A stretch of 64,000 nucleotides of DNA from Methanobacteriota archaeon (GTDB taxonomy: Archaea > Thermoplasmatota > Poseidoniia > Poseidoniales > Thalassarchaeaceae), in assembly GCA_002726275.1 (NCBI GenBank), contig PBSO01000025.1, positions 2,147 through 66,146 of the forward strand. Direction: 5' to 3'. The translations under genes were made by a program, and so were the position numbers. A model generated the notes under the pieces. That model was not told the DNA's origin, ran no database searches, and was given only the letters and a program-made list of their open reading frames with translations. Below, piece by piece: positions 4,680-50,085 of the stretch (position 1 is its first letter; every line of letters starts with the position of its first letter).

Positions 4680-6653
4680 TTATTCCCTCTTCTGACCTGT
4701 CAAAACGGACAGTGCTAGGAGGATGCAAATTATAGGAAGGCCATTTGAGGGCTTTGAAAGCCATCCCAAAATACCGTTACCCGTAAAGGGAGACTCTGCT
4801 ATCAGAGTTACTCCCACCCTATTCTCAAGTCCGCTTTCGTCTTGGAAAACCACCTCTCCCCTTGCATACATGCCTGGCTCCATTAGCCCCAAGGGATCTA
4901 TCTCGATAACTAGTGGGTCACCGGGCCCTATCTCCCCTTGGGTAGTCACTGTTGCAATCCTAGCGGCGGCGCCCTCAATAGCAATGAAATAATCCCTCGG
5001 ACCAGTGCCCTCATAGTCCAAATCTATGGATATCGAAGATGGTTTCTCCCAGTCAATTACCGACTCTAAATTCTGAGATGTGATTCTGTTTCCAATCTTC
5101 TGCCAATTCAATCTGATGGAAACTGGGTTCTCGCCTTCACAACCGATTGAGCCAATCAATGTCCCCATCTGCAATGAGGTGTCTGAGTACCTAAGTATCG
5201 GGACTTCGGATAATCCAGCAGGAATTACTATGGATTTCTCCACGGGACTGCCAAGAACGGCGCTGACATTGACAATTAAGTTGCACTGAGAAGGAGTATT
5301 TACCAGTGCATATGATGACTCCCCATCAAGCAACTGAATGGGGTTTCTCTCTGTAAGCACGGAGGTGGTTGGGGTGCTAGAAGTCATAATTTCTATTGTA
5401 GCAGAGCTATCAAGAATCTGTGTAACAGTAGCGGTCCAATGAACCACTCTCCCCCTATTGTCCCTAATTACTACACCTTGTGAACCGAATGAGTCGTTAA
5501 CAGAAAATGTGTCTCCTTCACTACCTGAGTCACGGTTCCTTACCAGAGCATCGTCCCCATCAGCTTCTATGATCTTGACCCAAGCATAATTTGGATCGTG
5601 GTTAACAGTGTTGTCTTCTGAGTTTCCGTTATTCACATCCTGGTACTCGACAATGATGCCATGTCCGGGCAAAGCGGAGTCGAAGCCACTATCTGAGCGT
5701 AGGGAGATTAGGACCCTCTCACCAGGTGCTGTCTCAAGAGAGAGTACCCTCGTAGCTAGAGATACACTACTAATCGAATCAATTTCGTATGAGCCATCTA
5801 GAGAAGTGTCGATTTCAATGATGCCATTGGAACTCACCAAATCCAGTGTTGCTGCTCCGGGCATGGAGGGGGTTCTTCCATTGTCATTCCAATTGCCGCT
5901 GGCCATTATGTCCCAATCACCAAGTCCATTCCAGTTATTTGAGGGGAGTTCTGAATGGACATCATATAGGTCAAAAGCGCCCATCTGGTGTAACATCTCG
6001 TGAACTACTGTTCCCAAACCGCTGTTCAATGAAGAAATTGTGTAATGCTCTACTGTCCATTCGCCAATAGATATGGGTTCTTGTAACTCTGAGAAGTGGC
6101 TCCATATCGAGTTTGATGAGGCTCCCGATTCCTGTGCTTCTCCTGAATGGAGTACCAGAAGTCTATCCACAATTCCATCGCCATTGTAGTCCCATCTCGA
6201 TAAGTTGGAGTTACCTAGAAGGGCATATACTGAGTCTTCGACTAATCCCTCTACCCCCCTACCGTCAATCCCTGAGTCCCTAGTACCTGGTGAATCGGCG
6301 CCCCAATAGCCCTCGTCTTCAGATGAAATCCAAACTTCCTCAGATAATGTCACCGTAAGCGTAGAGTGGCCTCCTGACATCTGTCTCACATATTGCGAAG
6401 CTGAGAGATGGGGTGACCCATCCCCATCCATATCGAAGATGGATTCAGTTATTGACTCGGAGTGAGGTTTTCCGGGAAAGGCGACGCGAAGAACAAGCCA
6501 TTCTTCGCTATTCTGCAATCCGACCAAATTTGAGTCTTGATCGTTATCGTCTATCCCTGGAGTCACTTTCGAATCGACCAAATCAGGATTCAGATTTATC
6601 ATGCCACCAAGAAGAATCAGGACAAGCGCTACCGCGTAACGTACTGACTTCAT
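4680..6653 (-). CDS. secreted zinc metalloprotease, HExxHxxGxxD (M6/InhA-like), with C-terminal TM anchor
   Basis: Signal peptide MKSVRYAVALVLILLGGMINLNPD. Motif TVVHEMLHQMGAFDLYD is HExxH plus a downstream Gly/Asp, as in immune inhibitor A-type metallopeptidases. C-terminal hydrophobic segment LPIICILLALSVLTGQKRE. Confidence 0.55.
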   Translation of the reverse strand: MKSVRYAVALVLILLGGMINLNPDLVDSKVTPGIDDNDQDSNLVGLQNSEEWLVLRVAFPGKPHSESITESIFDMDGDGSPHLSASQYVRQMSGGHSTLTVTLSEEVWISSEDEGYWGADSPGTRDSGIDGRGVEGLVEDSVYALLGNSNLSRWDYNGDGIVDRLLVLHSGEAQESGASSNSIWSHFSELQEPISIGEWTVEHYTISSLNSGLGTVVHEMLHQMGAFDLYDVHSELPSNNWNGLGDWDIMASGNWNDNGRTPSMPGAATLDLVSSNGIIEIDTSLDGSYEIDSISSVSLATRVLSLETAPGERVLISLRSDSGFDSALPGHGIIVEYQDVNNGNSEDNTVNHDPNYAWVKIIEADGDDALVRNRDSGSEGDTFSVNDSFGSQGVVIRDNRGRVVHWTATVTQILDSSATIEIMTSSTPTTSVLTERNPIQLLDGESSYALVNTPSQCNLIVNVSAVLGSPVEKSIVIPAGLSEVPILRYSDTSLQMGTLIGSIGCEGENPVSIRLNWQKIGNRITSQNLESVIDWEKPSSISIDLDYEGTGPRDYFIAIEGAAARIATVTTQGEIGPGDPLVIEIDPLGLMEPGMYARGEVVFQDESGLENRVGVTLIAESPFTGNGILGWLSKPSNGLPIICILLALSVLTGQKRE

Positions 6654-6727
6654 GGTATACCGTGATCAAGCGTGGCTTTCAAGTAAATGTAATCGTGATC
6701 GTGGATGGATGGAATATGGCGAGATAG

Positions 6728-7453
6728 TCAATCACGGAAAGGCATCAACTTTGAAAATTGGTCAGCTGCAAATATCGCTAACACGGCGATAACTATCCTA
6801 AGTCCGTCATAGACCAATGGAAGAGTTAGGATGAGCATGCCTGCCGACATTAGCATTAACCTGATCCTGAACCTTGTCTCCTCGCCCCCTGAGGAAAGAA
6901 TGAGTCGTGAGAGTGCTAGAGCCAGTGATGTCAGTGTGACGATCAAAACGACCCATGTCATTCCAAGTGAAATCTCTACGACCTTGCTCACGTCATACAT
7001 TTCCTCGACGCCATTAATCGAACCTATTTCTTCTGAAACTGAGAAAATGGCAGATATCCCCCAGGTCCAAATTACCACGGTTAGCAATGGTGCAATTATA
7101 GAGAAAATCGAGAGTAGAGTTGCAAGCCACCTTCTTTCATCAACGTAAAGACCTGTTCTCGAGAAGCGATAAATGAGTATTGAGAAGATAGGAAGTACGG
7201 AAACCGAAGAGAGTAATAATATCAGGGTCCACCTAACTCCTATCCAATCCATGGGCGAGTACAGGGACATTGCAGACTCATTACTCTCGGAAGATGCTGC
7301 TAATACCCAATCACCAATCGTCGATGTTGAAATTGTTGACCATAGTGCAGCAAAAATTAACAGAAAAAGGGAGGTTTTTCTGAATACAGAATGTAATTCT
7401 GAAAAATGATTGGGTGATTTTCCATCAGGCTCGGAATGCTGTCTTACTGACAT
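6728..7453 (-). CDS. hypothetical multi-pass membrane protein
   Basis: 241 aa with at least 6 hydrophobic helices (LFLLIFAALWSTI, WTLILLLSSVSVLPIFSILIY, LATLLSIFSIIAPLLTVVIWTWGISAIF, VVLIVTLTSLALAL, LMLMSAGMLILTLPLVY, IVIAVLAIFAA). No recognised motif. Confidence 0.4.
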   Translation of the reverse strand: MSVRQHSEPDGKSPNHFSELHSVFRKTSLFLLIFAALWSTISTSTIGDWVLAASSESNESAMSLYSPMDWIGVRWTLILLLSSVSVLPIFSILIYRFSRTGLYVDERRWLATLLSIFSIIAPLLTVVIWTWGISAIFSVSEEIGSINGVEEMYDVSKVVEISLGMTWVVLIVTLTSLALALSRLILSSGGEETRFRIRLMLMSAGMLILTLPLVYDGLRIVIAVLAIFAADQFSKLMPFRD

Positions 7454-7454
7454 A

Positions 7455-8573
7455 TCACATGCGATCCTTTACCGATGGTTCAGTTCTTGCTGCTAGTATT
7501 GTCCTATAGACCCCATAAGCAAACAGGATACTAGTCAGGAACGCGCACCCTATCAGGAACCCCGTAAGGTCTGTGACGTGAGTCCCCTCTTCTACGACTG
7601 CCGGGGGTGGGAAGTAGATTGCAGTGTCGGATGCGGTCCAATTCACCGCGACGATGAATGATACAATGCTCATAATTGACCTCCTAATTGCTTGTGGGTA
7701 AGCGAGCTCCATTGCAAGGAACTCTGGGCCATCGTCATACTTCCTCTCCAGAATCTCCCTCTGTAGTATGGCACCGAAAATCAACGCCACTAGGCTTGTC
7801 CAGAAGAATAGATTTCCTTGTGAGAAAACTGCATGCGATAGTGCCTCTTGCCTCTCTGCTTCTTTCTGTGAGTCTGACTCCTCTATGACAAATAATGTAT
7901 CATAATCTCCGACTGATATTGTCCTGGTATCCAAGGTAGCGCCGGATTCGTCAGAAGTCACAGTCCCTGGTGGGTTGATGGTGAACGATAATACGTTCCA
8001 GTAGTCTGAATCGTCTGGAACACCGCCGCCATCAACAGAGTTTCCAGCTAGCCAGAAGTAAATGGGACCTATGTCATCTGAGGGAGCCGTCCAAACCACT
8101 GTCCATATCCCGTCTGAGTCTGGTTCGGAGTGGGAGATATCATCAGGGGCGCCGTCTGCCTGTCTGATGTCCTGATCATCTGACCAGCTGAAAGTTCCGT
8201 TTGACTCCGAAGTCATCAGGAATCCAGCCTTTTTATTTCCCTCTCCACCCGAGAGTGTTAGCGAGTCTGCAACGGTAATCGTGAACTCGTACGATTGCCC
8301 TGGGTCGTACATCACAGGGATGCCTGTTATCATCACCACTGCTCTGACGGAAGATGCCCCATTGTTATGACAAGAGCAACCGTACTTGGCGGTGGGGTCG
8401 CCATCACCGTTCTCGCTACTCGGACCCGCGCTCATCCCCATTGCGGGAACTGCTAGAAGTACACCTACGATCAAGACGACGCCGAGCCTCTTCACTGTGG
8501 AGCTCATGTCTGTTACCGAACTGCGTTCGGCAGTGATGGACTCATAACGATTGCTTGGAAACATGATAGTCAT
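7455..8573 (-). CDS. secreted protein with N-terminal G-C-x-C-H motif domain and C-terminal multi-TM anchor (paralog of 51478..52287)
   Basis: Signal/TM LGVVLIVGVLLAVPAMG then YGCSCHNNGASS. Conserved block WTVVWTAPSDDIGPIYFWLAGNSVDGGGVPDDSDYWNVLSFTI aligns with WHISWTAPPSDSGIVTLWLAGNSVNGDGVPSDLDRWNRLSTTI of ORF 51478. Three C-terminal hydrophobic helices. Begins 6 bp after pntB stop. Confidence 0.45.
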   Translation of the reverse strand: MTIMFPSNRYESITAERSSVTDMSSTVKRLGVVLIVGVLLAVPAMGMSAGPSSENGDGDPTAKYGCSCHNNGASSVRAVVMITGIPVMYDPGQSYEFTITVADSLTLSGGEGNKKAGFLMTSESNGTFSWSDDQDIRQADGAPDDISHSEPDSDGIWTVVWTAPSDDIGPIYFWLAGNSVDGGGVPDDSDYWNVLSFTINPPGTVTSDESGATLDTRTISVGDYDTLFVIEESDSQKEAERQEALSHAVFSQGNLFFWTSLVALIFGAILQREILERKYDDGPEFLAMELAYPQAIRRSIMSIVSFIVAVNWTASDTAIYFPPPAVVEEGTHVTDLTGFLIGCAFLTSILFAYGVYRTILAARTEPSVKDRM

Positions 8574-8579
8574 CTCCCA

Positions 8580-10016
8580 TTATAGGTCCTTGATTGAGCC
8601 ATTGAGCTCATTCATCATTTTCTTTCCGTCGCCAAACAGCATCATTGTCTTGTCCATGTAGAAGAGGTCGTTATCTACGCCAGCGTAGCCAACTGAAAGG
8701 CTCCTCTTGATGATGACGACGACATTTGCCTTGTCGACATCCAAAATTGGCATTCCTGCCAGCGGACCTTCTCCAGTTCTAGCTGCAGGGTTAGTGGTGT
8801 CATTTGCCCCAATAACCAGGGCAACGTCACAATCAGGGAATTCGGAATTTATTTCATCCATTTCAATGAGTCTCTCATATGGGACATTCGCTTCTGCGAG
8901 GAGGACGTTCATGTGCCCCGGCATCCTTCCAGCTACGGGGTGTATAGCGTAGAGAACCTCGCACCCTGTTGACTCCATGAGGTCCGCGAATTCCTTCACG
9001 GCATGCTGACTCTGACTGACGGCCATCCCATATCCGGGAACTACGATGACGCGTTGGGCCCCATCTAGGACCATGGCGACCTCCTCGGGATCGCTGCCTA
9101 CCTTGGTTCGAGTAAGCTGATCCTTTTCCCCTGAACCGCCGAATGCCTTGAACAGCACATCGAAGAGTTCCCTATTCATCGCCTTGCACATAATGAATGT
9201 GAGGATTAGCCCAGCAGCTCCGACCATCGAACCAGCGATGATTAGAACGTTATTACCAATCACGAACCCGGTGAATGCGGCAGCGATTCCTGAGAGTGAA
9301 TTCAGGAGGCTGACAACGACCGGCATATCTGCGCCCCCTATGGGGAGTACAAACAGTATTCCGAGCAAGCCAGATGATAGCGCCAATGCGTAAATCCAGT
9401 AGTGCTCGGATGGTTCCTGTATTGTCATCCAGATGAGTGCGAATGAGGAAAGAAGTAGTATGGCCTTGACAGAGTTGAGCCATGATGGTCCCCATGTTGG
9501 GAATCTGACCCACTTACCTGTGAAGGGGACGGTAAACCCGCCCTTCAACTTGTACATCGCCACTAGGCTACCAGTAAGTGTGATCCAACCGACAATCCCC
9601 GAAAGCCCAATTGCTACCCATATCGCATAAAGCTCTACTCCCGGGTCGGGTATGTTCGACTCTTGGATCCTCTTTAGCGCCTCTGAAAGACCGACCAGGG
9701 CAGAGGCACCGCCCCCAAATCCATTGAAGAGTGCAACCAATTCGGGCATTCCGGTCATTTCAACCCTAGTTGCCATCAGGTATCCAATTAGAGATCCTAT
9801 GACCAGGCCCCCAATAATCAACTCCCAGCCAATTACGCCCTCGGTCTGAAGCTTGGCAAGTGTGACCACTACAGCGAGTAACATACCCATGGCCCCGAGG
9901 CTGTTTCCCTCGGGTGCAGTTCTTGGACTCGATAGCTTCTTGATTCCCATGATGAACAAGGAAGCTGAAATCAGGTAACCGATGTCCCAAACCACTGGAT
10001 CGACCAATCTATTCAC
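8580..10016 (-). CDS. pntB: NAD(P) transhydrogenase subunit beta
   Basis: N-terminal multi-TM domain plus C-terminal NADP(H)-binding domain: GYGMAVSQSQHAVKEFADLMESTGCEVLYAIHPVAGRMPGHMNVLLAEANVPY...DVALVIGANDTTNPAA... This is characteristic of PntB dIII. Confidence 0.85.
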   Translation of the reverse strand: MNRLVDPVVWDIGYLISASLFIMGIKKLSSPRTAPEGNSLGAMGMLLAVVVTLAKLQTEGVIGWELIIGGLVIGSLIGYLMATRVEMTGMPELVALFNGFGGGASALVGLSEALKRIQESNIPDPGVELYAIWVAIGLSGIVGWITLTGSLVAMYKLKGGFTVPFTGKWVRFPTWGPSWLNSVKAILLLSSFALIWMTIQEPSEHYWIYALALSSGLLGILFVLPIGGADMPVVVSLLNSLSGIAAAFTGFVIGNNVLIIAGSMVGAAGLILTFIMCKAMNRELFDVLFKAFGGSGEKDQLTRTKVGSDPEEVAMVLDGAQRVIVVPGYGMAVSQSQHAVKEFADLMESTGCEVLYAIHPVAGRMPGHMNVLLAEANVPYERLIEMDEINSEFPDCDVALVIGANDTTNPAARTGEGPLAGMPILDVDKANVVVIIKRSLSVGYAGVDNDLFYMDKTMMLFGDGKKMMNELNGSIKDL

Positions 10017-10329
10017 CCCCCTTTCTACGTCGCCCGGCTATCATTCCAAGCATCTTGTTCGTAACCATGAATCCACCAACCGCATTGATTGTGGCCATGA
10101 TCAGAGCGAGAAATGCCAGAAGTGCTGCAACATCGGTGTTTGCACCGTCGAAAGATGAGTTTGACAATATCAAGGCACCCACTATGGTAATTCCAGAAAT
10201 GGCATTGGCCCCGGACATCAGAGGAGTATGAAGGGTAGGGGGGACCTTACTGATTAGCTCGAATCCGAGGAAAATTGCCAATACGAAAACTGTGATACTG
10301 CCGACCAGAGCTCCGAGAGTAAGGCTCAT
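10009..10329 (-). CDS. pntAB: NAD(P) transhydrogenase subunit alpha part 2 (membrane domain)
   Basis: 106-aa hydrophobic protein (three helices) between pntAA and pntB with 4-8 bp overlaps. Typical split-alpha arrangement pntAA-pntAB-pntB. Confidence 0.7.
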   Translation of the reverse strand: MSLTLGALVGSITVFVLAIFLGFELISKVPPTLHTPLMSGANAISGITIVGALILSNSSFDGANTDVAALLAFLALIMATINAVGGFMVTNKMLGMIAGRRRKGGE

Positions 10330-11495
10330 CCAACCACCTCCGCCAACCGGGACTGCTTAGAGTGAATCTCCCCGTTTGAGCAAATGAGGACGCCTCCCAT
10401 TCCGGGAATGTGGAAGTCAGAACCTTCTGGAGCACCAACCAAGATGTCGTCTTCCATGTCCAACTCCAACTTCCCATCCTTAACCAGGCTAATGACGAAG
10501 TTCGTGAGATTGTTAGAGAAAAGCATGCTGGCGGTTGAGGGGATGGTTCCCGCGAGATTCTCAATTCCGACAATTGTAACCCCATACTCGCTCGTTATCT
10601 CACCTGGAACTGTGAGCTCGCAGTTTCCACCGACATCCGCGTTCATGTCAATAATTACAGAGCCCTCTTTGAAGGATTCAACTGCCGAAGAAGGAACCGT
10701 GATAGGGGCCGGCCTACCAAAAATACGAGCTGTGGTAACAATTACGTCCGCATCACTGGCGACCTCGCAAACAGTATCGTTGACCTTCTGAATGAACTCG
10801 GGAGTCAGTGGCTTTGCATAGCCAGACTCATCCTCGAAGTCGTCCATACCATCTACTTCGATGAACCTGCCGCCTACAGACTCAATCTGCTCAGCGGCCG
10901 ACTTCCTGACATCTGATGCATAGACCACCGCCCCCAGACGCTTCGCGGTTGCTATGGCCTGTAGGCCTGCAACGCCACTACCCATGATCACGAATTTAGC
11001 CGGCTTAACCGTTCCAGCACTGGTGGTCATCATCGGTATACCCTTGGGGACTTGTGCTGCGCCCAGAAGCACCGCCTTGTACCCAGAGAGGTTGTCTTGG
11101 CTGGAATTAACGTCCATTGCTTGAGCCCTTGAGAGTCTCCTCGGAATCATGTCCATACTCATCAGTGTGATACCTGCATCCATCGCTTCGCGGACTCTAT
11201 CAGGGTTCCTGAATGGGTCGGCAACACAAGCTAGTATATTTCCCGCGCTCATCGATGAAGTATCCGGCATCCTAATTGAAATCACGATGTCTGCTGACAT
11301 TGCAGAGTCGCGTGGAACTATTGATGCACCCTTTGACGCGTACTCCTCATCGGAGTGGTTCGCCTTGTGTCCTGCTCCAGCCTCCACCAGAACCTCAAAA
11401 CCGAGCTTGGTTAGTTTTGTTACCGAGTTTGGAACTATGGAAACTCTATTTTCTCCTTCTGGCTCCTTGACCACTCCCAAGCGCATTGTCATCAC
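10326..11495 (-). CDS. pntAA: NAD(P) transhydrogenase subunit alpha part 1 (alanine dehydrogenase-like NAD(H)-binding dI)
   Basis: [39 protein letters not shown] plus Rossmann [29 protein letters not shown]. Likely start is the internal Met (MRLGV...) 9 nt downstream of the ORF start. Confidence 0.85.
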
Positions 11496-31071: not shown

Positions 31072-32652
31072 TCAAAACCCCAGTAGAGAAGTGGCAAATG
31101 GGATGATTGGTGACAAGACAACTATTGCGGCGCCGGCCATGAACATGGCGCCAACTGTTCTCCTTACCCTAGTAATCAGATCATTGCCCACCTGCACATT
31201 CAGAACTCTTCCAGAAACGAGATTTCCGGAGTCGTCCTCCAGCCTTACTGTGACTGTAGCTTCTCCCTTTATTGAAGGTAGCAAACTTTGCCATACAATA
31301 CCAGTGTGGTTAATCATTTCCTGCATCTCGTGTGAAAGCGAAGTTGATTCCATAGGATCAAATGAGTGAGATAGGGGCAATGACCTAAGCTTGTAGACGC
31401 ACTCATTGGGTTTGAAATCAGGAGTCTGTATCTTCAAGAATAAGTCCCGAGGATCTTCTCCACGATTTAGGACGAAAGCGAAGAGGTTCGCCTGGCCGAC
31501 CACTAGATTTTCCATGTCTACGTCAAACCAGAAACCCCCATCAGACTTACTCAGTCCCCTTCTCATCCTCATCCTATCGTAGAGTCTGAAGAATGGCTTG
31601 CATTCACTCCTTGCGTGCATCAGCAGCCTATCCCATGTCTCCTCGCCTAGCTCGGGATGGTTGAATAGTCCGTCGATAGACGATTCCTCCACCATCTCCC
31701 CCAATGAGTCTTTGAACTCTGACTCTGAAATCAAGGAAGATCTCCGTAAATGCAAGAGGTGCAGCAGGGATTCCTGTAGTTCGGAGATTTCTACCCCTTC
31801 CTTCAGACCTACTCCGACTGTTCTAAGATACTCGGAAATTCTGATATTCAATAGGGGGTCGATGTGTGCCTTTATGACATCATTGAACGGCCTATTCAGT
31901 AGAGCAGGGTGTATTGGAGGTGAGAATGCCTCTAACATACCCCATGGCTCAGAAGCATTGAACCTAGACCTATGGGAGATTAAATGGACTCCGTGACCTG
32001 CAAGTAGTGAACCAGTAGAAAGTGAGATCAACACTGGCATTCCAGACTCCCCACTGGATAGCCAGAGGCTAGTCCCAAGAAGGGCTGCTGATATTATCAT
32101 CAGGGACGAAGTTGCGGTGATTTGACGTATTGATCCATCTATTGTGGCCCTCATCTCTGCATAGCCATGAGAGCTTCTGAAAGTGATTCCCGATGAGGTT
32201 AGTGACTCTGCCTCAAGATGGAATATTGAGCGGGAATAAGACATCATCCTGAGCAGGGAGGAAAGTAGTGCGATATCTGCGATAATTATCAGCAGTGTTA
32301 GAGCGTGAGTTGCGGTAACAAGGCTCAATCCCCCAGATGCTTCCCTGAGGTGGTCATCCCACCACAGATTGTCAGTCTGCCCGTATGACTGTGCCACACC
32401 GAAAAGCACCACGGCGAAAAGTGGGAGTAGTAAGATCAACCTAGCTCCACCGCTAACAAGCACCCTGTCCAATGTAATCAGGGAGCCCTCCCTGTCCCTG
32501 AGGGAGCTTTCCTTCCAGTCAAAATCACCAATGTCTTGCGTGATATATTGAGTCTCTAGTTTTGGTGCGGGAGGCGTGAAATCGCTAATCTCATCCGCCA
32601 GACTATCCAGAGTTTCTTCGTCAATCAATCTTAGTCCCCCTAACTCTTGCAA
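31072..32652 (-). CDS. hypothetical large membrane protein
   Basis: 526 aa. N-terminal soluble region, about 4 TM helices (LILLLPLFAVVLFGV; LSLVTATHALTLLIIIADIALLSSLL; ITATSSLMIISAALLGTSLWL; MPVLISLSTGSLLAGHGV), large C-terminal soluble domain ending in a TM helix (AMFMAGAAIVVLSPIIPFATSLLGF). Confidence 0.4.
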   Translation of the reverse strand: MQELGGLRLIDEETLDSLADEISDFTPPAPKLETQYITQDIGDFDWKESSLRDREGSLITLDRVLVSGGARLILLLPLFAVVLFGVAQSYGQTDNLWWDDHLREASGGLSLVTATHALTLLIIIADIALLSSLLRMMSYSRSIFHLEAESLTSSGITFRSSHGYAEMRATIDGSIRQITATSSLMIISAALLGTSLWLSSGESGMPVLISLSTGSLLAGHGVHLISHRSRFNASEPWGMLEAFSPPIHPALLNRPFNDVIKAHIDPLLNIRISEYLRTVGVGLKEGVEISELQESLLHLLHLRRSSLISESEFKDSLGEMVEESSIDGLFNHPELGEETWDRLLMHARSECKPFFRLYDRMRMRRGLSKSDGGFWFDVDMENLVVGQANLFAFVLNRGEDPRDLFLKIQTPDFKPNECVYKLRSLPLSHSFDPMESTSLSHEMQEMINHTGIVWQSLLPSIKGEATVTVRLEDDSGNLVSGRVLNVQVGNDLITRVRRTVGAMFMAGAAIVVLSPIIPFATSLLGF

Positions 32653-33283
32653 GTATCTTCTTCGAAATGGATTCGGACATTTCGACTGGTGAGCCGTTGC
32701 ATGAAATTCCTGACTCTGATGTAATTATCACGGAACCAATGGTTATGCCGAAGCTCTCCAATGTCCGTTTCTCTATTGAGTCGACGGCCAATATCTCAAC
32801 TACTGATTCCGACCCAGGGGGGATATTTCTGATTGGCAGAAGAAGGCCCTCCGTGGACGTTTCCACGGACCTCTCGATTAATGGTATTCTCTTTCCGGAT
32901 GGAGTGAATTCAGGATATCCAAGCATCCTGTCTATGGCAGATTCTAATTCTGGGCCCATGTCATGCTCCATCTTGCACGCTGCTTCGTTGATATCTCCTG
33001 AATAGCCAATGACTTCTGAGAGAAGAATCTCCAGCAAACACTCCCTCCTCTTGACTCTGGCCGCCTGTTGAAAACCTAGGGGGGTTAGTCTGGATCCTTT
33101 GTATGGGATGTGCGTGACTAAATCTCTGGAAGCAAGCCTCTGAATCATCTCAGATACAGATGCTGGGCTAACAGATAGCATTTCGGATAATTGTGTTGTT
33201 TTTAGAATGCCATCCGGTGTAGAGTCATAGAACTCGAACATTCTCTTCAAGTACATTTCCTCAAACTCACTCAGCTCGATCAT
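32621..33283 (-). CDS. DtxR/MntR-family metal-dependent transcriptional regulator with C-terminal FeoA/SH3-like domain
   Basis: N-terminal wHTH EMYLKRMFEFYDSTPDGILKTTQLSEMLSVSPASVSEMIQRLASRDLVTHIPYKGSRLTPLG, metal-binding/dimerisation region RRECLLEILL...ACKMEHDM, C-terminal FeoA-like beta domain. Confidence 0.65.
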   Translation of the reverse strand: MIELSEFEEMYLKRMFEFYDSTPDGILKTTQLSEMLSVSPASVSEMIQRLASRDLVTHIPYKGSRLTPLGFQQAARVKRRECLLEILLSEVIGYSGDINEAACKMEHDMGPELESAIDRMLGYPEFTPSGKRIPLIERSVETSTEGLLLPIRNIPPGSESVVEILAVDSIEKRTLESFGITIGSVIITSESGISCNGSPVEMSESISKKILARVRGTKID

Positions 33284-39078: not shown

Positions 39079-40647
39079 CTATGCCTCATCTGGTATGTAG
39101 AACAAGTCCACACTACCCGTTCCAAGTGCTATTGGCTGCCCCACAACAATATTCTCGGTGACTCCCCTGAGTTCGTCTCTCTCACCGATTATTCCCGCTC
39201 TGAGCAAGTGGGTAACTGTAACCTCGAAGGCCGAGCGAGCCAATATGCTGTGCTTGGTACCGCTTACTCCATGCCTACCTATAGCCCTAACTTCACCTTC
39301 GCTAGTCATAACGTCTGAGACCATCAGAAGATGTCTGACATCGACATCCAATCCCGCCCCTTCTAGAGTGTCGCTCATCTCGTTTATTATTGCCTGCCTA
39401 GCAGCCTCTATTCCGAGGTACGAATGAATCTCATTGATGTTGTTCGTGTAAGTCCTTGAGCGATCTATGCCTGCGAATTCGCTCACCTTGGCAAGGTTCG
39501 ATCCTATGGTCGAGATGTAGTACTCCCCGTTCTCACCAGCTTGGACATTTGCCCTCTCTATGCCCCTGATTCCCTTCAACTGTAGTTTCTTTATCTTGTC
39601 CTCCAGTTGCAAAAGATCCGTGTATGTCGGCGGATCCGTGGCAAGAGTCTCCAAGTCTTCCTCTTTGGAGACACCAGGGATTATCTTCAGTTCCTTCGGC
39701 TTATCATCTGAGTCCGCCTGTATGAACAGCCTAAGGGCCCTCTGAAGCTTGTCCCTAACTTCGGCGCCAGACATATTCTTCAGACGCATGTTGGAGTTGT
39801 TTAGTTTCAGGCTAAGGTAACGCTGTGCTACCTCGACATCAATATTAGCTATGTCACTGGTTTTTGTTGCCTCCAATCCGGCGGCGATTCCCCTGACTAG
39901 TTTCTCATTCGTGCGAAGTGGCTTGCCTTTGGAATTAAATTCCTCTAGGAAAATTCTCATTGTAGGGGTATTGGGGACCTTACGGGCATCGACAATTTCA
40001 ATGATCCTCGGAAGGCCCTGTGTTACGTTAACGGTAGCGACACCCGCATAGTGGAATGTTCTCATGGTCATCTGAGTACCAGGCTCCCCGATTGACTGAG
40101 CCGTGGTGATGCCCACGGCTTCATGGGGATCTGCTTTGGACCTCCTGAGGGATGACCTAGCAGACTGAATGACCTTCCTTGCCTTTGCAGGAGTAATCTT
40201 GGAGTTCCCACGGGACCTTATCCCCTCAGTTAGGTCTGTGAGCATCCTAGGAGTCAGAACGAGTCCTTCCCCCTCGCAAGCGGAGGCGAGTTGAGCATAG
40301 ATTTCGTCATGGTGATCGATGTCCCTCATTACCTGTACCATCTTGGATTCCGAATCATAGGTCTGGAGTGGCATCATTGACTTACGCCTTCGACGTGAGG
40401 CGGCCGACTTTCTGCGCACTACCGTCTTCTCTGTCGAGACGGCGGCCCTGGATGACTTGGTAGACGCCGCCATTAGATCATGTATCCTCTGAGCGGTTCC
40501 TGAGTCGATTCCGCAGATCTGGGCTATTTGTCCTGCGGTGAGGACCTTGACATCGTCCCACTTCCTATCATCTGCCAGTTTGTGAGCATATTCCTCATCT
40601 ATCTGGAGATCCATTAGTTTCTTCTTTGTTGCACTCTTGACTACCAT
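39079..40647 (-). CDS. rpoA2: DNA-directed RNA polymerase subunit A'' with ~125-aa N-terminal HhH-like extension
   Basis: Core [37 protein letters not shown] is the canonical A''. N-terminal [27 protein letters not shown]...[20 protein letters not shown] is an extra domain with a helix-hairpin-helix-like motif followed by an Arg/Ser-rich basic stretch. Confidence 0.9.
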
Positions 40648-43600
40648 CAGTTAGCACCTCCCAATGCATCGTCTAGGACCTTGGAAACGTCGAACGGCAT
40701 TCCCCCTCGGCTACGTGCTGGATCGACTCCGTCCTCACCATATTCGAACTGAATGATTCTGTCGGCAGTGTTCCTAACCGAACCCATGCCGTCGTTCGCG
40801 ACCTTCAAGTCGTCCATGGCGTTGATTAGCCTTCTTTGCATGTATCCAGACTTCGCTGTTCGGACCGCGGTGTCGACTAGCGACTCCCTTCCGGATACCG
40901 AGAGCATGAAGAATTCGGTTGGTTCCAGGCCCCTCTTGAATGAAGAGCCGACGAATCCTTTCTCCTGAGCGCCCTTGGCATTTCGGGGGAAGTGAGAGAG
41001 AACACGGTCTTGGTAACCACGCTCAAGGCGCTTTCCTCGAACCTTTGGTTGGCCGATAGAACCTGCCATCATGGCTAGGTTGTCCATCGAACCACGAGCT
41101 CCTGAGGTCGCCATGAGAACAGCCGAGTTATCGTCTCCAAGGTATGTCTTCGCTATGTTTCCTGATTCGGTTTTGGCCTCGTCCAGAATCATCAATATGT
41201 TCTCCTCCAATGTCTCCATGGGAGTCCTGCCGGGCCTTGTCTCGTACTTCCTCCCGTCCTTTCCGAACTTCGCTAGCTCCTCATCCACTGCATCGCTACC
41301 ATTCTTGTTGATCTTTGCAATCTCTGACTTCGCCTCCGGAGGGAGGTCTTCATCGTCGATTCCCGTGGTGAATCCCATCGAGGTACATATGGAAATTGTC
41401 ATCCTGGTCATCCTGTCTAGGAATTCAGCACCGGCGTCCGGGCCGTGTGTGTGGACTACGGCATCCAGTAGCCTTCCATCCTCAGCGCCTATTCCCCTCT
41501 TGTCAATAGTTCCCGAAACATCGCCCTTGGTGACCTTCACATTATCGCCAATCCTACTGATGTAGTCTAGGTTGAAGCCTTCTGGAACAATTAGGCTCAG
41601 AACATCGCTTCCTCGATATCCGATCACCCCATTCTCTTCCACCTCTGGAGGCAGTTCCCCGTCCCAGTTTGTATCCCCTAGGACCTGCATTACCAAATTC
41701 TTCGGCAGAACTCTATCGCCGTGTGTAAGCAAGTAGGCTCCTGAAATGTGGTCGTGTATTCCACCGATTACGCTTCCACCGTACCTTGGTGTTATGATGT
41801 GTTCTTGGACTCTCATCAGAATCTTCGCCTCTGCTCTCGCCTCTTCGCTCTGAATGACGTGGAGGTTCATCTCATCGCCGTCAAAATCGGCATTGTAAGG
41901 AGTACAATCAGCTAGGTTGAATCTGAAGGTCTTTCCAGGCATGACCCTGACCTCGTGAACCATCATCGACATCCTGTGAAGAGATGGTTGCCTATTGAAG
42001 AGGGCGACATCGCCGTCAATCAAGTGCCTCTCCACTATCACACCTGGCTTTGGGTTCCCATCCAAGTCGTGAGTGCTGAGCCTGTCCTCGACATCGGTAC
42101 TGTATGCGTTGCCATAGTCATCCTCTACTTCTGGGCTGCCACAATGAGGGCACTTAACCTCTAGATGATCGGGCAGGTATTCTCCGGGATGCTCCATCTC
42201 CCACTTCCACCTCTGGTGAATAGAGGCTCGTTGATCGCCGTCAGGGAGGGGCAATCCCCTCTCGTCCTCGCCCCTGAGGTTCCTGAGGGTCATGTCCAGA
42301 TCGACCCCCCACTCCTCCTCCAAATCACCAATTGAATTTCTCCTCATTTGCCTCATTAGTTCGAGTCCTGGTAGGAAATTTGGTGCGGGCAGCACTTCAT
42401 TCAAGTCAGGCCTGTATCCAGTATATGGCTCGTCGTCACTACCGGAGTGGCACTCAGGATTAAGACACCTGAAGCCAGACCAGATAAACTTCGTTCGATC
42501 GGTTATCCTGACTCTGAACTTATCCCCCCTGATGATGTAATTTACACCTGGGTGAACGTCTGGGCCTCGTAGAATCATCTGCCTTAGTTGCTCCCTGTTC
42601 CTACTCGTGACACGGATAGGAACGGTGAGCTCCTTGGCCGTCTGAGTAGGTATTCCGACTTCGTTAATCCCCAAGTTTGGATCGGGGCTAATCACTGTTC
42701 GCGCACAGAAGTTCACTCTCTTTCCTGAGAGGTTGCTCCTGAATCTGCCCTCCTTACCCTTGAGCCTCTGTGCGAGGGTCTTCAGTGGCCTTCCAGACCT
42801 GTGTCTTGCAGGCGGAATTCCGCTAGTTTGGTTATCGAAGTAAGTGGTACAGTGATATTGCAACAACTCCCACAAGTCTTCAACAATAAGCTGGGGCGCG
42901 CCTGCGTCTCTGTTCTCCCTGAGTCGCTGATTAATCCTAAGTACGTCAACTAACTTGTGAGTCAAGTCATCTTCGGACCTGTCTCCACTATCGAGGGTGA
43001 TGGAGGGTCTTACTGTGATTGGCGGTACTGGAAGTACTTTCATTATGACCCACTCTGGCCTTGCTGCATCCTTGTCCATGCCAAGGAAGATGAGGTGTTC
43101 ATCGGGAATCCTCTCCAGCCACTCCCTAATGTCCCGGGCATTGAGCTTGTGCTCACCCTTGTTCTCTTTCTTCTCCTTGAATGTCGATGGCTTGTCCAGT
43201 ATAATTTTACCCTGTTCGCTACCACAGTGCATGCAAATCGTCCTCTTCTTGCTGGAGCACTCCTTCTCTATGTCTTTGATGACATTCTTGAATTCGGAGG
43301 AACCGACGCCGTGCTTGATCATTACATCCTTAACTCTCTCTTCATAATAATCCTGCTCAGACTTTTCTGGGTCCACTGGATGGGTTTCTGGTTTGTCATG
43401 AAGGAGAATCTTACTGCATGTGTTGCATGTAGACTTCAGTGAAGTCTTGATTAGATTCGTGAAACCGATGTGCATTACTGGGAGCTCTAGTGCGATGTGC
43501 CCAAAGTGACTGGGGCACTCATCGTGCTTGTTTCCACATGTCTCACATCTCACACCTGGGTCGATAACACCCATCTTAGGATCCATTAGTCCTTGCTTGT

Positions 43601-43739
43601 AGGGATGTCCGTCGTCTTTGTAAGTATCAGCGGTTTTCACCTCGACAGAGGACATTTTCCTAATTTCATTTGGATCCATAAGCGTGAACTTAATCGCCTC
43701 AATCCTCTTTGGAATCTTTGCTGCATTTCGGGCACTCAT
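40647..43739 (-). CDS. rpoA1: DNA-directed RNA polymerase subunit A'
   Basis: 1030 aa. Zinc-binding N-terminus [20 protein letters not shown], catalytic [10 protein letters not shown], clamp/dock regions. Confidence 0.95.
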
Positions 43740-47452: not shown

Positions 47453-47462
47453 CTATTGCACC

Positions 47463-48086
47463 TCAATTACTCTCCACAATTAGTCGGTAGGCCGTGGTAG
47501 CACCTGCTGACCTACTATACCTCACAACTTTCACGACCCTGTTCCTGAGCCAACCCGCTGGGAAGTCATCCTCCCTGGTCCCCCCTGCTATCTCATTCCT
47601 TCTCTTTTCTTCCTCGATTTCCTTCAAGGCCTGTACAGCTGGATCTGTTATGAGTATCTTGGGCAGTAGCTCCTTGGCCAATCGGCTGTTGCCCGAATTG
47701 TCCTTTTCTAACAATCCCCATGGAGAGAGGATGTCTTCCTCGTCATCCTCTGGAACTAGATCATGATGGGGGACTAGTTGGTGGTTTAGAACGTTGAATC
47801 TATCATCGCCGACTGGTATGTCTTCATCCAGAAGAGCGCTCCTGGATATTGTTATCCTCCCCGCTCTACTCCTCCTCCTCGAGGCGGCTTGCTCCCTTAT
47901 GATTCCCATAATGTTGTCAATATCAGCTGAGCCAGTCTCGAGATCGGTTTTCTTGGCGACTTCTTCGACTGTCATCCTCTTGATGGCATCCATATTCGCA
48001 TCATCAGCGAGTTTGTGGGCGTGCTCCTCGGAGACACCGAGTTCTATTAGTCTCTTTTTGGTTGAACTTTTGACTGCCATGCGCAC
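47463..48086 (-). CDS. rpoH: DNA-directed RNA polymerase subunit H (Rpb5-like) with ~95-aa N-terminal basic extension (HhH motif weak or absent) and an internal insert
   Basis: C-terminal NVLNHQLVPHHDLVPEDDEEDILS...ITDPAVQALKEIEE...VVKVVRYSRSAGATTAYRLIV matches RpoH (HELVPKHE...DPV.K.LGA.PGDV.KI.R.S.TAG....YRLVV). N-terminal MRMAVKSSTKKRLIELGVSEEHAHKLADD... parallels the rpoA2 N-terminus. The position aligned to the rpoA2 HhH hairpin reads KKTDLETGSADI, which is not a clear HhH. The H-like region carries an acidic/charged insert (GLLEKDNSGNSRLAKELLPK...EIEEEKRRNEIAGGTREDD). Confidence 0.75.
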   Translation of the reverse strand: MRMAVKSSTKKRLIELGVSEEHAHKLADDANMDAIKRMTVEEVAKKTDLETGSADIDNIMGIIREQAASRRRSRAGRITISRSALLDEDIPVGDDRFNVLNHQLVPHHDLVPEDDEEDILSPWGLLEKDNSGNSRLAKELLPKILITDPAVQALKEIEEEKRRNEIAGGTREDDFPAGWLRNRVVKVVRYSRSAGATTAYRLIVESN

Positions 48087-49732: not shown

Positions 49733-50085
49733 CGCTTCCTAGGTGGCCTCTCAAGTCCCATCCTTTCCCTGACCAGTCGGATCTTGCCCGACTTAGCCAC
49801 GGTCGAAATTGATTTGATCGAGTTTAGGGTAGAAATGGCACTATCGGAGTCGGGAAGAGAGACCCTTAGTATGCAGAGGACTGGTTTCTGGGAGTTCGCA
49901 AAGTCATAGAGTCGCCACCCCATATCGCCCAGTGTCTTCTCAAGTATCGCCTCCATCGCAGATCTGTCCTGAACGATATTTTCCACTTGGAATCCTATCC
50001 ATCTGTGTTTGCCCCTAGAAGCCTTTCTCTGCCTCGCCACGATAGCTCGGAAGGGGCATCCACTTAACGCATGATGGGTAATCAA
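49729..50085 (-). CDS. candidate RNase P protein component Pop5/Rpp14-like
   Basis: QRKASRGKHRWIGFQVE matches the Pop5 N-terminal R-x-K-x-RY-h-x-F-E-h pattern. ~118 aa. 4-bp overlap with the upstream FtsZ-like gene. Confidence 0.35.
   Translation of the reverse strand: MITHHALSGCPFRAIVARQRKASRGKHRWIGFQVENIVQDRSAMEAILEKTLGDMGWRLYDFANSQKPVLCILRVSLPDSDSAISTLNSIKSISTVAKSGKIRLVRERMGLERPPRKR

What the first reader, a model, noticed from the sequence alone, without database searches (positions are those of the whole stretch)
7455..8573. Paralogous secreted protein family with a conserved N-terminal G-C-x-C-H motif; one copy heads the Rieske/cyt b operon, the other follows pntB
ORFs 7455..8573 and 51478..52287 share a domain that begins right after the signal peptide with YGCSCHNNG and AGCTCHSEEP. 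Both continue with the strongly conserved block W..SWTAP.SD.G....WLAGNSV.GDGVPSD.D.WN.LS.TI. Both are membrane-anchored at the C-terminus. C-x-C-H is not the canonical haem c site (CxxCH) and is not a Rieske or cupredoxin pattern that I recognise. Both copies sit in redox contexts: one at the head of the Rieske/cyt b/HdrD-like operon, the other directly downstream of the pntAA-pntAB-pntB transhydrogenase genes. This suggests an uncharacterised extracytoplasmic metal- or cofactor-binding electron carrier.
Basis: seen in the sequence. Interest (0 to 1): 0.65.

Follow-up and report, generated by a model that had tools for sequence, protein, structure and literature searches.

The report
Reeler-fold CxCH module in archaeal respiration
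Two related outward-facing membrane proteins of a marine group II archaeon carry an invariant Cys-x-Cys-His site on a Reeler-type fold, and the same module heads the cytochrome b/Rieske operon and is fused to the terminal oxidase in this lineage, so it is a strong but unproven candidate for the missing electron hand-over part of their respiratory chain.

Summary
ORFs 7455..8573 (-) and 51478..52287 (+) are paralogues (30% identity, E 1e-29). Both carry G-C-x-C-H just after the signal peptide and are membrane-anchored at the C-terminus.

The domain is not unknown. It is NCBIfam NF041895 (choice-of-anchor V), a prokaryotic relative of the Reeler domain, and AF2 models match F-spondin reeler structures best.

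G, C, C, H and a distal His (H127 in P2) are invariant across every class I sampled. That includes 239 of 240 close homologues and about 140 of 148 distant cluster representatives.

- **P2:** it is the first gene of a P2–DUF7318–Rieske–cyt b6–subunit IV/HdrD-like operon in 80 of 80 MGIIb loci, and in one distant archaeon.
- **Oxidase fusion (new):** in Poseidoniales and MGIII the same domain is fused to the N-terminus of haem-copper oxidase subunit I, in about 54 of 66 loci.
- **Other contexts:** single cases are fused to a plastocyanin-like domain, fused to a b561-like membrane domain, or adjacent to a multicopper oxidase.
- **P1:** its constant partner is TatC, not pntB.

The best reading is a built-in extracytoplasmic electron-relay module. 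The cofactor is unproven; copper is favoured and covalent haem is second. A link to cytochrome f is not robust.

The parts
51478..52287 (+). P2: signal peptide, Reeler-like (choice-of-anchor V) domain, single C-terminal TM helix; first gene of the Rieske/cyt b operon
   Evidence: ORF. NF041895 at 98 bits against a cut-off of 42. AF2 pLDDT 88 with a beta-sandwich plus helix 216-244. Synteny holds in 80 of 80 loci.
51613..51627 (+). P2 G46-C47-T48-C49-H50 motif
   Evidence: Invariant in alignments A2, A4 and A8. Coordinates.
51853..51861 (+). P2 T126-H127-T128, holding the second invariant His
   Evidence: H127 is conserved in at least 90% of sequences in A2 and A4, and is invariant in A1, A6 and A8. 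hhalign aligns it to the 'SH' of a Reeler sequence I recalled for FRRS1.
52123..52209 (+). P2 C-terminal transmembrane helix (residues 216-244), followed by a basic tail
   Evidence: AF2 secondary structure. Sequence.
52287..52736 (+). DUF7318 small membrane protein, translationally coupled to P2
   Evidence: Pfam PF24002, E 7.6e-07. TAATG overlap. Conserved position.
52733..53593 (+). Rieske iron-sulfur protein (CPHLCC and CICH boxes, RR signal)
   Evidence: TIGR01416 partial hit. Motifs.
53603..54469 (+). b6-type (short) cytochrome b with a CxGG motif
   Evidence: Pfam Cytochrome_B, E 8e-42. NF002990 cytochrome b6, E 8e-58. CLGG at 53912..53923.
54479..57268 (+). Subunit IV-like N-terminus (PDWY) fused to an extracytoplasmic insert, a TM helix, 2x[4Fe-4S] and two CCG (HdrD-like) domains
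57611..57943 (+). Ferredoxin-like ORF (two CxxCxxCxxxC motifs), probable last gene of the operon
   Evidence: An equivalent Fer4 gene closes the P0358 operon.
7455..8573 (-). P1: signal peptide, Reeler-like domain, three C-terminal TM helices (the true start is possibly M23 at 8507)
   Evidence: ORF. NF041895 at 77.7 bits. AF2 pLDDT 88.9. Best PDB matches are F-spondin reeler domains, E 1.5e-7.
8367..8381 (-). P1 G65-C66-S67-C68-H69 motif
8127..8135 (-). P1 S147-H148-S149, the second invariant His
7485..7874 (-). P1 three-helix membrane anchor (residues 234-363)
   Evidence: AF2 helices 234-278, 288-314 and 337-363 with pLDDT above 90.
6728..7453 (-). TatC-family gene, 1 nt downstream of P1; the constant neighbour of P1-type genes
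   Evidence: Pfam TatC at 35.5 bits against a cut-off of 25.1. Adjacency shown.
8580..11495 (-). pntAA-pntAB-pntB transhydrogenase genes upstream of P1 (context only)
   Evidence: ORFs. Pfam families for the homologous loci. Replaced by ETF genes in L081.

Best explanation
P1 and P2 are members of the choice-of-anchor V family, which is Reeler-like. Each is an extracytoplasmic beta-sandwich displayed on the outer face of the membrane. Each carries an invariant G-C-x-C-H about 20 residues from the mature N-terminus, plus an invariant distal His.

In Poseidoniia (MGII and MGIII) this module has been built into the aerobic respiratory chain in two places:
- P2 is a subunit of the b6f-like Rieske/cyt b complex. 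It occupies the slot that cytochrome f or c1 fills elsewhere.
- A third paralogue is fused, through one TM helix, to the N-terminus of haem-copper oxidase subunit I, next to the CuA subunit. This is the slot of the cytochrome c domain in caa3 oxidases.

The most likely mechanism is electron relay. A redox cofactor held by Cys/Cys/His/His accepts the electron from the Rieske cluster and passes it on to CuA. Transfer could be direct between the two homologous modules or via halocyanin. I favour copper as the cofactor, with a covalently attached haem second.

**Shown:** paralogy, fold class, residue invariance, operon membership and the fusions.
**Inferred:** that a cofactor is bound, which one it is, and that electrons pass through it.

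The role of P1 is not resolved. P1 is the three-helix paralogue that is always next to TatC. It may serve the same chemistry for another partner, or act in maturation.
For: - **Paralogy and family:**
- **Fold:** AF2 models have pLDDT 88 and 89. The best PDB matches are F-spondin reeler domains, E 1e-6 to 1e-7. hhalign to F-spondin reeler gives 87% probability. Six distant members hit Pfam Reeler, down to E 3e-7.
- **Motif conservation:** CxCH is present in 239 of 240 close homologues. G46, C47, C49, H50 and H127 are invariant across P1-type, P2-type, COX1-fused, stand-alone and other fused members.
- **Family size:** 3195 clusters at 50% identity.
- **Complex III link:** the operon P2-DUF7318-Rieske-cyt b-SUIV/HdrD is present in 80 of 80 MGIIb loci. 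A member with about 30% identity has the same operon. Genes are tightly coupled.
- **Complex IV link:** 9 of 9 long ORFs tested have the architecture signal peptide + domain + TM + COX1 (PF00115, E 1e-124 to 1e-156). They lie in COX2-COX1-COX3-COX4 operons. Sources name them Ca. Poseidoniales, Thalassarchaeum, Thalassarchaeaceae and MGIII. The fusion spans three divergent COX1 types. CuA ligands are present in the adjacent COX2.
- **Other redox partners:** one fusion to a plastocyanin/halocyanin-like domain (P0293) and one to DUF4079 (P0333). One member sits 41 nt downstream of a multicopper oxidase.
- **Literature:** MGII have cyt b and Rieske but no canonical third subunit (PMC6336850). Halocyanin is highly transcribed in Thalassarchaeaceae (PMC9723583). 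Archaea use copper proteins between Rieske and the oxidase (PMC4122944).
Against: - No tool result shows a bound cofactor, and I could not inspect model coordinates.
- Solved Reeler domains (F-spondin) have no cofactor.
- CxCH is not a known haem c site, and it is not a known copper motif.
- A Rieske to halocyanin to CuA chain would work without any extra centre, as in Sulfolobus and haloarchaea.
- Many family members are N-terminal heads on long Ig-repeat surface proteins, or sit in uninformative contexts. An isolated relay would be useless there.
- Redox fusions other than COX1 are rare: 1 Copper-bind and 1 DUF4079 among 148 representatives.
- The context of P1 (TatC, M6 peptidase, pnt or ETF) is not obviously redox.
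Confidence: 0.45

Rival explanations
1. Copper chaperone or insertase. The module binds Cu(I) at Cys-x-Cys(-His) and delivers it to CuB or CuA of the oxidase, or to halocyanin. It would act as Cox11 (Ig-like fold, CFCF motif), Sco or PCuAC do in bacteria and mitochondria. The fusion to COX1 would tether the chaperone to its client.
For: - The domain is fused to COX1 in about 54 of 66 loci.
- One member is fused to a cupredoxin (P0293) and one is adjacent to a multicopper oxidase. All three partners are copper proteins.
- A CxC motif on a membrane-anchored Ig-like sandwich recalls Cox11 (my own knowledge, not tested).
- The signal peptides lack a conserved twin arginine, present in only 45 of 120 orthologues. 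This fits metal loading outside the cell.
Against: - P2 is the first gene of an operon that encodes no copper protein, in 80 of 80 loci.
- A permanently fused chaperone conserved across three oxidase types is unusual.
- No Cox11, Sco or PCuAC family hit appears in Pfam or NCBIfam.
- Cox11 was not among the top 50 fold matches.
Confidence: 0.17
2. Cytochrome f-like c-type haem protein. Haem would be attached covalently at C-x-C-H, with His50 as axial ligand. P2 would then be a true functional equivalent of cytochrome f, and the COX1-fused copy the equivalent of the caa3 cytochrome c domain.
For: - The 'CH' dyad is invariant while the first Cys varies. Spacing is 1 residue in 131 of 148 representatives, 4 in 6, 2 in 2 and 6 in 1. 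The Cys is replaced by Ala in GATCH variants P0324 and P0423. This is how haem c motifs vary (my own knowledge).
- The motif lies at mature positions about 20-23, in a beta-sandwich with a C-terminal TM anchor, as in cytochrome f.
- The P2 model hits spinach cytochrome f 7zyv_C (E 7e-6) and the soluble cytochrome f 2jxm_B (E 7e-4).
- hhalign's only match aligns tCH with nCH in register.
- Both slots (complex III third subunit, oxidase-fused donor) are filled by c-type cytochromes in bacteria.
- The cyt b of this operon keeps the CxGG haem-ci cysteine.
Against: - The P1 model gives no cytochrome f match in the top 50.
- hhalign probability is only 3.4%.
- No Pfam cytochrome f hit appears.
- CxCH haem attachment has no precedent.
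- No CxxCH protein is encoded in the window.
- No CcsA/CcmC/CcmF-like WWD ORF occurs in 1.94 Mb of fetched loci (this is not genome-wide).
- Archaeal c-type cytochromes and Ccm are reported only in a few other orders (PMC4429474).
Confidence: 0.15
3. Non-redox structural or docking module. The Reeler-like sandwich would be a scaffold: a supercomplex tether between complexes III and IV, a halocyanin docking site, or a surface or S-layer contact. The CxC pair would form a stabilising disulfide and the His residues would be structural, or would bind Zn or Ca.
For: - Reeler domains with solved structures are cofactor-free adhesion or heparin-binding modules (top hits).
- Many relatives are heads of Ig-repeat surface proteins with sorting signals. 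This is the defining trait of 'choice-of-anchor' families.
- The GNSVNGDG..D.WN block looks like a Ca-binding loop (inference).
- The respiratory chain would be complete without it.
Against: - Strict invariance of C, C, H and H at 25-35% overall identity, across all architectures, is unusual for a purely structural feature.
- Single-Cys variants keep the Cys-His dyad, so a disulfide is not the conserved element.
- Recruitment into both respiratory complexes and fusion to a cupredoxin point to chemistry.
Confidence: 0.22

Closest known systems
NCBIfam NF041895 choice-of-anchor V domain / Pfam PF02014 Reeler domain (e.g. F-spondin reeler, PDB 3COO/2ZOT/2ZOU; Reeler of FRRS1/SDR2)
   Same: - P1 and P2 pass the NF041895 cut-off.
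- Solved reeler domains are the best fold matches.
- hhalign to F-spondin reeler gives 87% probability.
- The domain always sits directly after the signal peptide.
- The 'W..W.AP' block and the 'TH' His align with a Reeler sequence I recalled for FRRS1.
- FRRS1 also places a Reeler domain outside a transmembrane electron-transfer protein (Reeler-DOMON-cyt b561).
   Different: - The window proteins fall below the Pfam Reeler gathering score: 17.4 against 21 bits for P1, and no hit for P2.
- The C-x-C-H site replaces the single Cys of F-spondin, which pairs with a mid-domain Cys that is absent here.
- No function is known for either family.
- Membership in respiratory operons and fusion to COX1 has not been described in the papers I could search.
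Cytochrome f (PetA) of b6f complexes
   Same: - Same functional slot: extracytoplasmic subunit encoded with Rieske, short cyt b6 and subunit IV.
- Same overall layout: signal peptide, Cys...Cys-His about 20 residues from the mature N-terminus, beta-sandwich, single C-terminal TM helix.
- The P2 model matches 7zyv_C and 2jxm_B.
   Different: - The motif is CxCH rather than CxxCH.
- There is no significant sequence or profile similarity.
- The P1 model does not match cytochrome f.
- The small domain of cytochrome f is absent.
- The N-terminal residue is not conserved.
- No haem-attachment machinery is known in the lineage.
Cytochrome c1, the cytochrome c domain of caa3 oxidases, and the dihaem cyt cc of actinobacterial III-IV supercomplexes
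   Same: One type of extracytoplasmic module is used both as the third subunit of complex III and as a built-in donor domain of complex IV. This comparison rests on my own knowledge of those systems.
   Different: - The fold is unrelated (all-alpha class I cytochrome c against a beta-sandwich).
- Here the module is fused to subunit I through an extra TM helix, not to subunit II.
- The cofactor is unknown.
Archaeal substitutes: sulfocyanin/halocyanin (blue copper) and CbsA (cytochrome b558/566) of Sulfolobus SoxLN-CbsAB
   Same: All are membrane-anchored extracytoplasmic beta-rich proteins. They take electrons from archaeal Rieske/cyt b modules that lack cyt c1 (PMC4122944; the CbsA comparison is from my own knowledge).
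   Different: - No cupredoxin or DOMON/EB_dh family hit.
- The ligand-like set is Cys, Cys, His, His with no conserved Met.
- Halocyanin is encoded separately in these genomes.
Cox11 (CtaG_Cox11), the CuB chaperone
   Same: It is a membrane-anchored Ig-like sandwich with a C-x-C motif that acts on oxidase subunit I (my own knowledge).
   Different: - The Cox11 motif is CFCF without the His, and its anchor is N-terminal.
- No family or fold match was found here.
- Cox11 is not part of complex III operons.

Membership tests
NCBIfam NF041895 choice-of-anchor V domain | HMM score above the curated cut-off (42 bits) | tested here: met
   P1 scores 77.7 bits and P2 98 bits. COX1-fused, cupredoxin-fused and other members score 73-106 bits.
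NCBIfam NF041895 choice-of-anchor V domain | Secreted N-terminal domain followed by one of several alternative C-terminal anchors | tested here: met
   Both have a signal peptide with the domain at residues about 28-190. Anchors seen in the family are one TM (P2), three TM (P1), COX1, T9SS tail and DUF4079.
Pfam PF02014 Reeler | HMM score above the gathering threshold (21 bits) | tested here: not met
   P1 scores 17.4 bits (E 0.0066) and P2 gives no hit. Among relatives, P0419 reaches 25.3 bits, and 6 of 148 representatives hit at E down to 3e-7.
Pfam PF02014 Reeler | Reeler beta-sandwich fold | tested here: met
   F-spondin reeler chains are the top 4 PDB hits for P2 and the top 8 for P1, with E 1e-6 to 1e-7 and TMt 0.53-0.62. 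hhalign probability is 87%.
Pfam PF02014 Reeler | N-terminal Cys disulfide-bonded to a mid-domain Cys, as in F-spondin C44-C128 | tested here: not met
   The extracytoplasmic domain has only the two Cys of CxCH. The F-spondin partner position aligns to a non-Cys residue.
Cytochrome f (PetA) | CxxCH haem c site | tested here: not met
   The motif is CxCH in both proteins and in 131 of 148 representatives. CxxCH occurs in only 2.
Cytochrome f (PetA) | Sequence or profile similarity to Apocytochr_F families | tested here: not met
   No Pfam hit. hhalign of A2 against a cytochrome f alignment gives 3.4% probability.
Cytochrome f (PetA) | Cytochrome f large-domain fold | tested here: inconclusive
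   The P2 model hits 7zyv_C (E 7e-6) and 2jxm_B (E 7e-4). The P1 model shows no cytochrome f in its top 50.
Cytochrome f (PetA) | Encoded with Rieske, cyt b6 and subunit IV, and anchored by one C-terminal TM helix | tested here: met
c-type cytochromes in general | A cytochrome c maturation system (Ccm, Ccs or HCCS) in the genome | not testable with these tools
   None is present in the window. No WWD-motif ORF occurs in 1.94 Mb of fetched loci. Whole Poseidoniales genomes could not be scanned. The literature lists no MGII cytochrome c.
Rieske-type [2Fe-2S] proteins | Box I (CxH...C) together with box II (CxCH), and Tat export | tested here: not met
   Only a box II-like CxCH plus one distal His is present. 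A twin arginine occurs in just 45 of 120 orthologues of each paralogue.
Cupredoxins (type 1 copper) | Copper-bind family match and the His...Cys-x(n)-His-x(m)-Met ligand loop | tested here: not met
   No Copper-bind hit in P1 or P2. No conserved Met. C47 and H50 do have the i/i+3 spacing of the shortest T1 loops (inference only).
Cox11 / CtaG copper chaperone | CtaG_Cox11 family match, CFCF motif and N-terminal anchor | tested here: not met
   No family hit. The motif is GCxCH. The anchor is C-terminal.

The most novel reading that the evidence does not exclude
The Reeler-like CxCH domain is a previously unrecognised class of extracytoplasmic redox centre: a copper site or a covalently bound haem on a Reeler fold. 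In the abundant marine Poseidoniia it would replace both cytochrome c1/f in complex III and the cytochrome c donor of complex IV. The two complexes would then be wired through homologous modules. By extension, the conserved Cys/His residues of eukaryotic Reeler domains in ferric-chelate reductases (FRRS1/SDR2) could mark a related metal or electron-transfer site.
Probability: 0.35. Interest if true: 0.88.

Novelty: new variant of a known kind. Interest (0 to 1): 0.72.

Why it matters
Marine group II archaea are among the most abundant archaea of the surface ocean and remain uncultured. Published reconstructions note a cytochrome b and a Rieske protein but no canonical complex III (PMC6336850).

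A conserved module heads that operon and is also fused to oxidase subunit I. That gives a concrete, testable candidate for how electrons leave the Rieske centre and enter the oxidase in this lineage.

If the CxCH site holds a cofactor, it would define a new redox protein class on a fold so far regarded as an adhesion module. It would also give a first functional handle on a family of more than 3000 protein clusters, and possibly on eukaryotic Reeler domains.

Tried and rejected
1. **Homology to cytochrome f.** A Foldseek hit of the P2 model suggested it. It was not reproduced with the P1 model and not supported by hhalign. I keep it only as an analogy and a minority rival.
2. **Rieske-like [2Fe-2S] site.** The motif has box II only, and the twin arginine is not conserved.
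3. **Tat export inferred from P2's SRRLFV.** RR is present in only 45 of 120 orthologues.
4. **A functional link between P1 and pntB.** ETF genes replace pnt in L081, while TatC is constant.
5. **PDB sequence search with the domain profile.** Nothing was found.
6. **Viral structure library.** Nothing significant, and this was a wasted job.
8. **Word-indexed homologue search with a profile.** It returned only Poseidoniales proteins.
9. **Genome-contig scan.** It returned only P2 orthologues.
10. **First metagenome query.** Alignment A6 was too divergent to derive a search pattern.
11. **Contexts of four small distant members.** These were uninformative, and one contig was too short.
12. **Literature searches.** Searches for choice-of-anchor V, Reeler with haem or copper, the CXCH motif and MGII oxidase fusions found no prior description.
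Full report
**1. Observation**

The two ORFs are present as described. P1 is window 7455..8573 (-), 372 aa. P2 is window 51478..52287 (+), 269 aa. BLASTP between them gives 30% identity and E 1e-29, and the alignment includes the long W..WTAP...WLAGNSV.G.GVP.D.D.WN block.

P1 has C66-S-C68-H69 and P2 has C47-T-C49-H50. In both, the motif follows a signal peptide (coordinates).

P2 is followed by a tightly packed gene string. The P2 stop overlaps the next start as TAATG. The string is:
- a DUF7318 gene;
- a Rieske gene;
- a short b6-type cytochrome b;
- a 929-aa fusion of a subunit IV-like part with 2x[4Fe-4S] and two CCG (HdrD-like) domains.

P1 begins 7 nt after pntB, and a TatC-family gene follows it after 1 nt. 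The names given to homologues place the organism in Marine Group II archaea, family Thalassarchaeaceae.

**2. What the domain is**

Both proteins pass the curated threshold of NCBIfam NF041895, the 'choice-of-anchor V domain'. Scores are 78 and 98 bits against a cut-off of 42. P1 also touches Pfam Reeler below threshold.

AlphaFold2 models built on alignments of 126-149 sequences are confident, with pLDDT 88 and 89:
- The domain is a beta-sandwich.
- P2 ends in one membrane helix.
- P1 ends in three.

Against the PDB, the best matches of both models are the reeler domains of F-spondin, with E 1e-6 to 1e-7. hhalign of the family profile against the F-spondin reeler sequence gives 87% probability. 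Six distant members reach Pfam Reeler at E down to 3e-7.

The domain is therefore a prokaryotic Reeler-like domain. It has a name in NCBI's annotation but no known function. The papers I could search say nothing about it.

**3. Conservation of the site**

- Among 240 close homologues of the two paralogues, 239 carry CxCH.
- An exhaustive HMMER search of 1.84 billion cluster representatives finds 3195 clusters.
- Of the best 148, 131 have CxCH, 6 have CxxxxCH, 2 have CxxCH and 1 has Cx6CH. The 8 without a two-Cys motif are mostly N-terminal fragments.
- Two members (P0324 and P0423) read G-A-T-C-H. They keep only the second Cys and the His.

I aligned all architectural classes together: P1-type, P2-type, three types of oxidase fusion, stand-alone members, the cupredoxin-fused member, the DUF4079-fused member, the distant complex III operon member and the multicopper-oxidase neighbour. 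The invariant residues are G46, C47, C49, H50, P66, G95, F96, G103, H127, W139, W143, P146 and G164 in P2 numbering.

The only invariant residues with ligand chemistry are the two Cys and the two His.

The domain always starts directly after the signal peptide. A twin arginine is present in only 45 of 120 orthologues of each paralogue. Export is therefore probably Sec-type, and any cofactor would be inserted outside the cell. This argues against an Fe-S cluster.

**4. Genomic context of the two window genes**

*P2.* The order P2-DUF7318-Rieske-cyt b-SUIV/HdrD is kept in 80 of 80 Thalassarchaeaceae loci, wherever the contig reaches. A distant member, P0358 (499 aa), heads the same set of genes in another archaeon: DUF7318, a 260-aa gene, cyt b, a Fer4/CCG protein and a ferredoxin. 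The window also has the ferredoxin-like ORF, at 57611..57943. P2 is thus best read as a subunit of this complex.

*P1.* The constant feature is P1-TatC-M6 peptidase, or at least P1-TatC, in 4 of 4 loci. Two of these loci carry members with only 41-48% identity. The pnt genes lie upstream in three loci and ETF genes in the fourth. The meaning of the TatC link is unexplained.

**5. The decisive new context**

A metagenome scan with a third subfamily returned 66 marine loci. In most of them the ORF that carries the domain is 720-780 aa.

All nine long ORFs I tested share one architecture:
- signal peptide;
- CxCH domain;
- one TM helix;
- a complete haem-copper oxidase subunit I (PF00115, E 1e-124 to 1e-156; NF041895 at 77-97 bits).

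The topology is consistent. The domain is outside, and one helix (residues 186-204 in L097) brings the chain back to the cytoplasmic N-terminus of COX1.

The fused gene sits in COX2-COX1-COX3-COX4 operons. The adjacent COX2 has the CuA ligands, CTEYCGDNHAYM.

By tblastn, about 54 of the 66 loci show the domain flanked by COX2 and/or COX1. The COX1 parts fall into three divergent types, with 82-100%, 57-63% and 38-39% identity to the L097 copy. Sources name these proteins as Ca. Poseidoniales, Ca. Thalassarchaeum, Thalassarchaeaceae and Marine Group III. This is the lineage of the window. The same module is therefore built into both complex III and complex IV of these archaea.

Elsewhere in the family there are three single cases:
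- one member is fused to three CARDB domains and a plastocyanin/halocyanin-like domain;
- one is fused to a DUF4079 (b561-like) membrane domain;
- one lies 41 nt downstream of a multicopper oxidase.

Other members are heads of Ig-repeat surface proteins or have uninformative neighbours.

**6. Mechanism**

*Shown:* an outward-facing Reeler-fold module with an invariant Cys-x-Cys-His...His set, membership of the Rieske/cyt b6 operon, and fusion to oxidase subunit I.

*Inferred:* the module carries a redox cofactor and hands electrons from the Rieske cluster towards CuA. It would fill the slots taken by cytochrome f or c1, and by the cytochrome c domain of caa3 oxidases, in other organisms.

This reading fits three published statements:
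- MGII have cyt b and Rieske but no canonical complex III (PMC6336850).
- Archaea use copper proteins between Rieske and the oxidase (PMC4122944).
- Halocyanin is highly transcribed in Thalassarchaeaceae (PMC9723583).

*Which cofactor?*

Copper is favoured for these reasons:
- The ligand types are Cys and His.
- Three partners are copper proteins (oxidase, cupredoxin, multicopper oxidase).
- Copper needs no special maturation system.

Covalent haem is the second candidate:
- The Cys-His dyad is the invariant core. The first Cys varies in spacing or is lost, which is the way haem c sites vary.
- The layout mimics cytochrome f, with the motif about 20 residues from the mature N-terminus, a beta-sandwich and a C-terminal helix.

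Against haem:
- CxCH attachment has no precedent.
- The cytochrome f fold match of P2 is not reproduced by P1, and hhalign does not support it.
- No CxxCH protein is encoded in the window.
- No WWD-motif ORF occurs in 1.94 Mb of fetched loci (this is not genome-wide).
- Surveys place archaeal c-type cytochromes in other orders (PMC4429474).

Two further rivals remain open: a Cox11-like copper chaperone role, and a purely structural or docking role. I could not inspect model coordinates, so the site geometry is untested.

**7. Comparison with the known, and novelty**

By tested criteria, the proteins are members of NF041895 and structural relatives of Reeler domains. They are not members of the cytochrome f, class I cytochrome c, cupredoxin, Rieske or Cox11 families (see the membership table).

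They may work like cytochrome f or c1. If so, they are a new variant of the 'third subunit' of Rieske/cyt b complexes, built on a different fold with a different motif.

I did not find the oxidase fusion, or the operon role, described in the library I could search.

**8. Verdict**

The finding is not an artefact and not already explained. The central claim, a bound redox cofactor, remains an inference.

- Interest: 0.72.
- Best explanation: 0.45.
- Most novel reading not excluded (a new redox protein class wiring complexes III and IV in Poseidoniia): probability about 0.35.

Noticed in passing
L093-L158 (e.g. L097:7881-10199): In Poseidoniales, Thalassarchaeaceae and MGIII, haem-copper oxidase subunit I carries an N-terminal signal peptide, a CxCH Reeler-like domain and an extra TM helix. 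The gene sits in COX2-COX1-COX3-COX4 operons, and three divergent COX1 types share the fusion.
   Followed up: yes
window 53912..53923 (within cyt b 53603..54469): The short cytochrome b has C104-L-G-G. This is the CxGG motif that binds haem ci/cn covalently in b6-type cytochromes. A published survey reported the Cys absent from the haloarchaeal short-cyt-b subfamily N.
   Followed up: partly
window 54479..57268 and 57611..57943: Subunit IV (PDWY at 54722..54733) is fused to a roughly 250-aa extracytoplasmic insert, a TM helix, 2x[4Fe-4S] and two CCG domains (HdrD-like). A separate ferredoxin-like ORF follows. The same gene set occurs in the distant P0358 operon. This suggests a Rieske/cyt b complex wired to cytoplasmic Fe-S modules.
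   Followed up: partly
window 4680..7453 (-); L081, L085, L086: The synteny P1-TatC-M6 metallopeptidase is conserved down to about 41-48% P1 identity. The TatC-family gene varies from 239 to 447 aa. The reason for the P1-TatC linkage is unknown.
   Followed up: partly
P0293 (L084:7001-8944); P0333 (L089:1864-4260); L087:4275-6983: There are three single cases of the domain with other redox partners. One is fused to three CARDB domains and a plastocyanin/halocyanin-like domain. One is fused to five Big_7 domains and a DUF4079 (b561-like) membrane domain. One lies directly downstream of a multicopper oxidase in a Rokubacteria MAG.
   Followed up: partly
L143:6424-8432; L132: Two variant arrangements were seen. 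In L143 a COX1 gene is followed by a stand-alone 209-aa domain gene. L132 has both a fused copy and a stand-alone copy.
   Followed up: no
window 8507..8573 (-): The annotated start of P1 (ATG at 8573) gives a 22-residue extension that is absent from many orthologues of 338-350 aa. M23 at 8507 is the more likely start.
   Followed up: partly
window 39079..48086 (-): An archaeal RNA polymerase gene cluster lies between the two loci. The ORFs are 207 aa (RpoH-like), 1238 aa (RpoB), 1030 aa, and 522 aa (Rpb1 domain 5). This confirms the archaeal origin of the window.
   Followed up: partly
window 50082..50996 (-): A 304-aa ORF with a GLGGGMGSG motif looks like a tubulin/FtsZ-family (CetZ-like) protein by eye. 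It is conserved upstream of the P2 operon in the 80 loci and is divergently oriented.
   Followed up: no
window 32621..33283 (-): An iron-dependent repressor (DtxR/MntR-type; Fe_dep_repress and Fe_dep_repr_C domains) is encoded in the window. It has no evident link to the finding.
   Followed up: no
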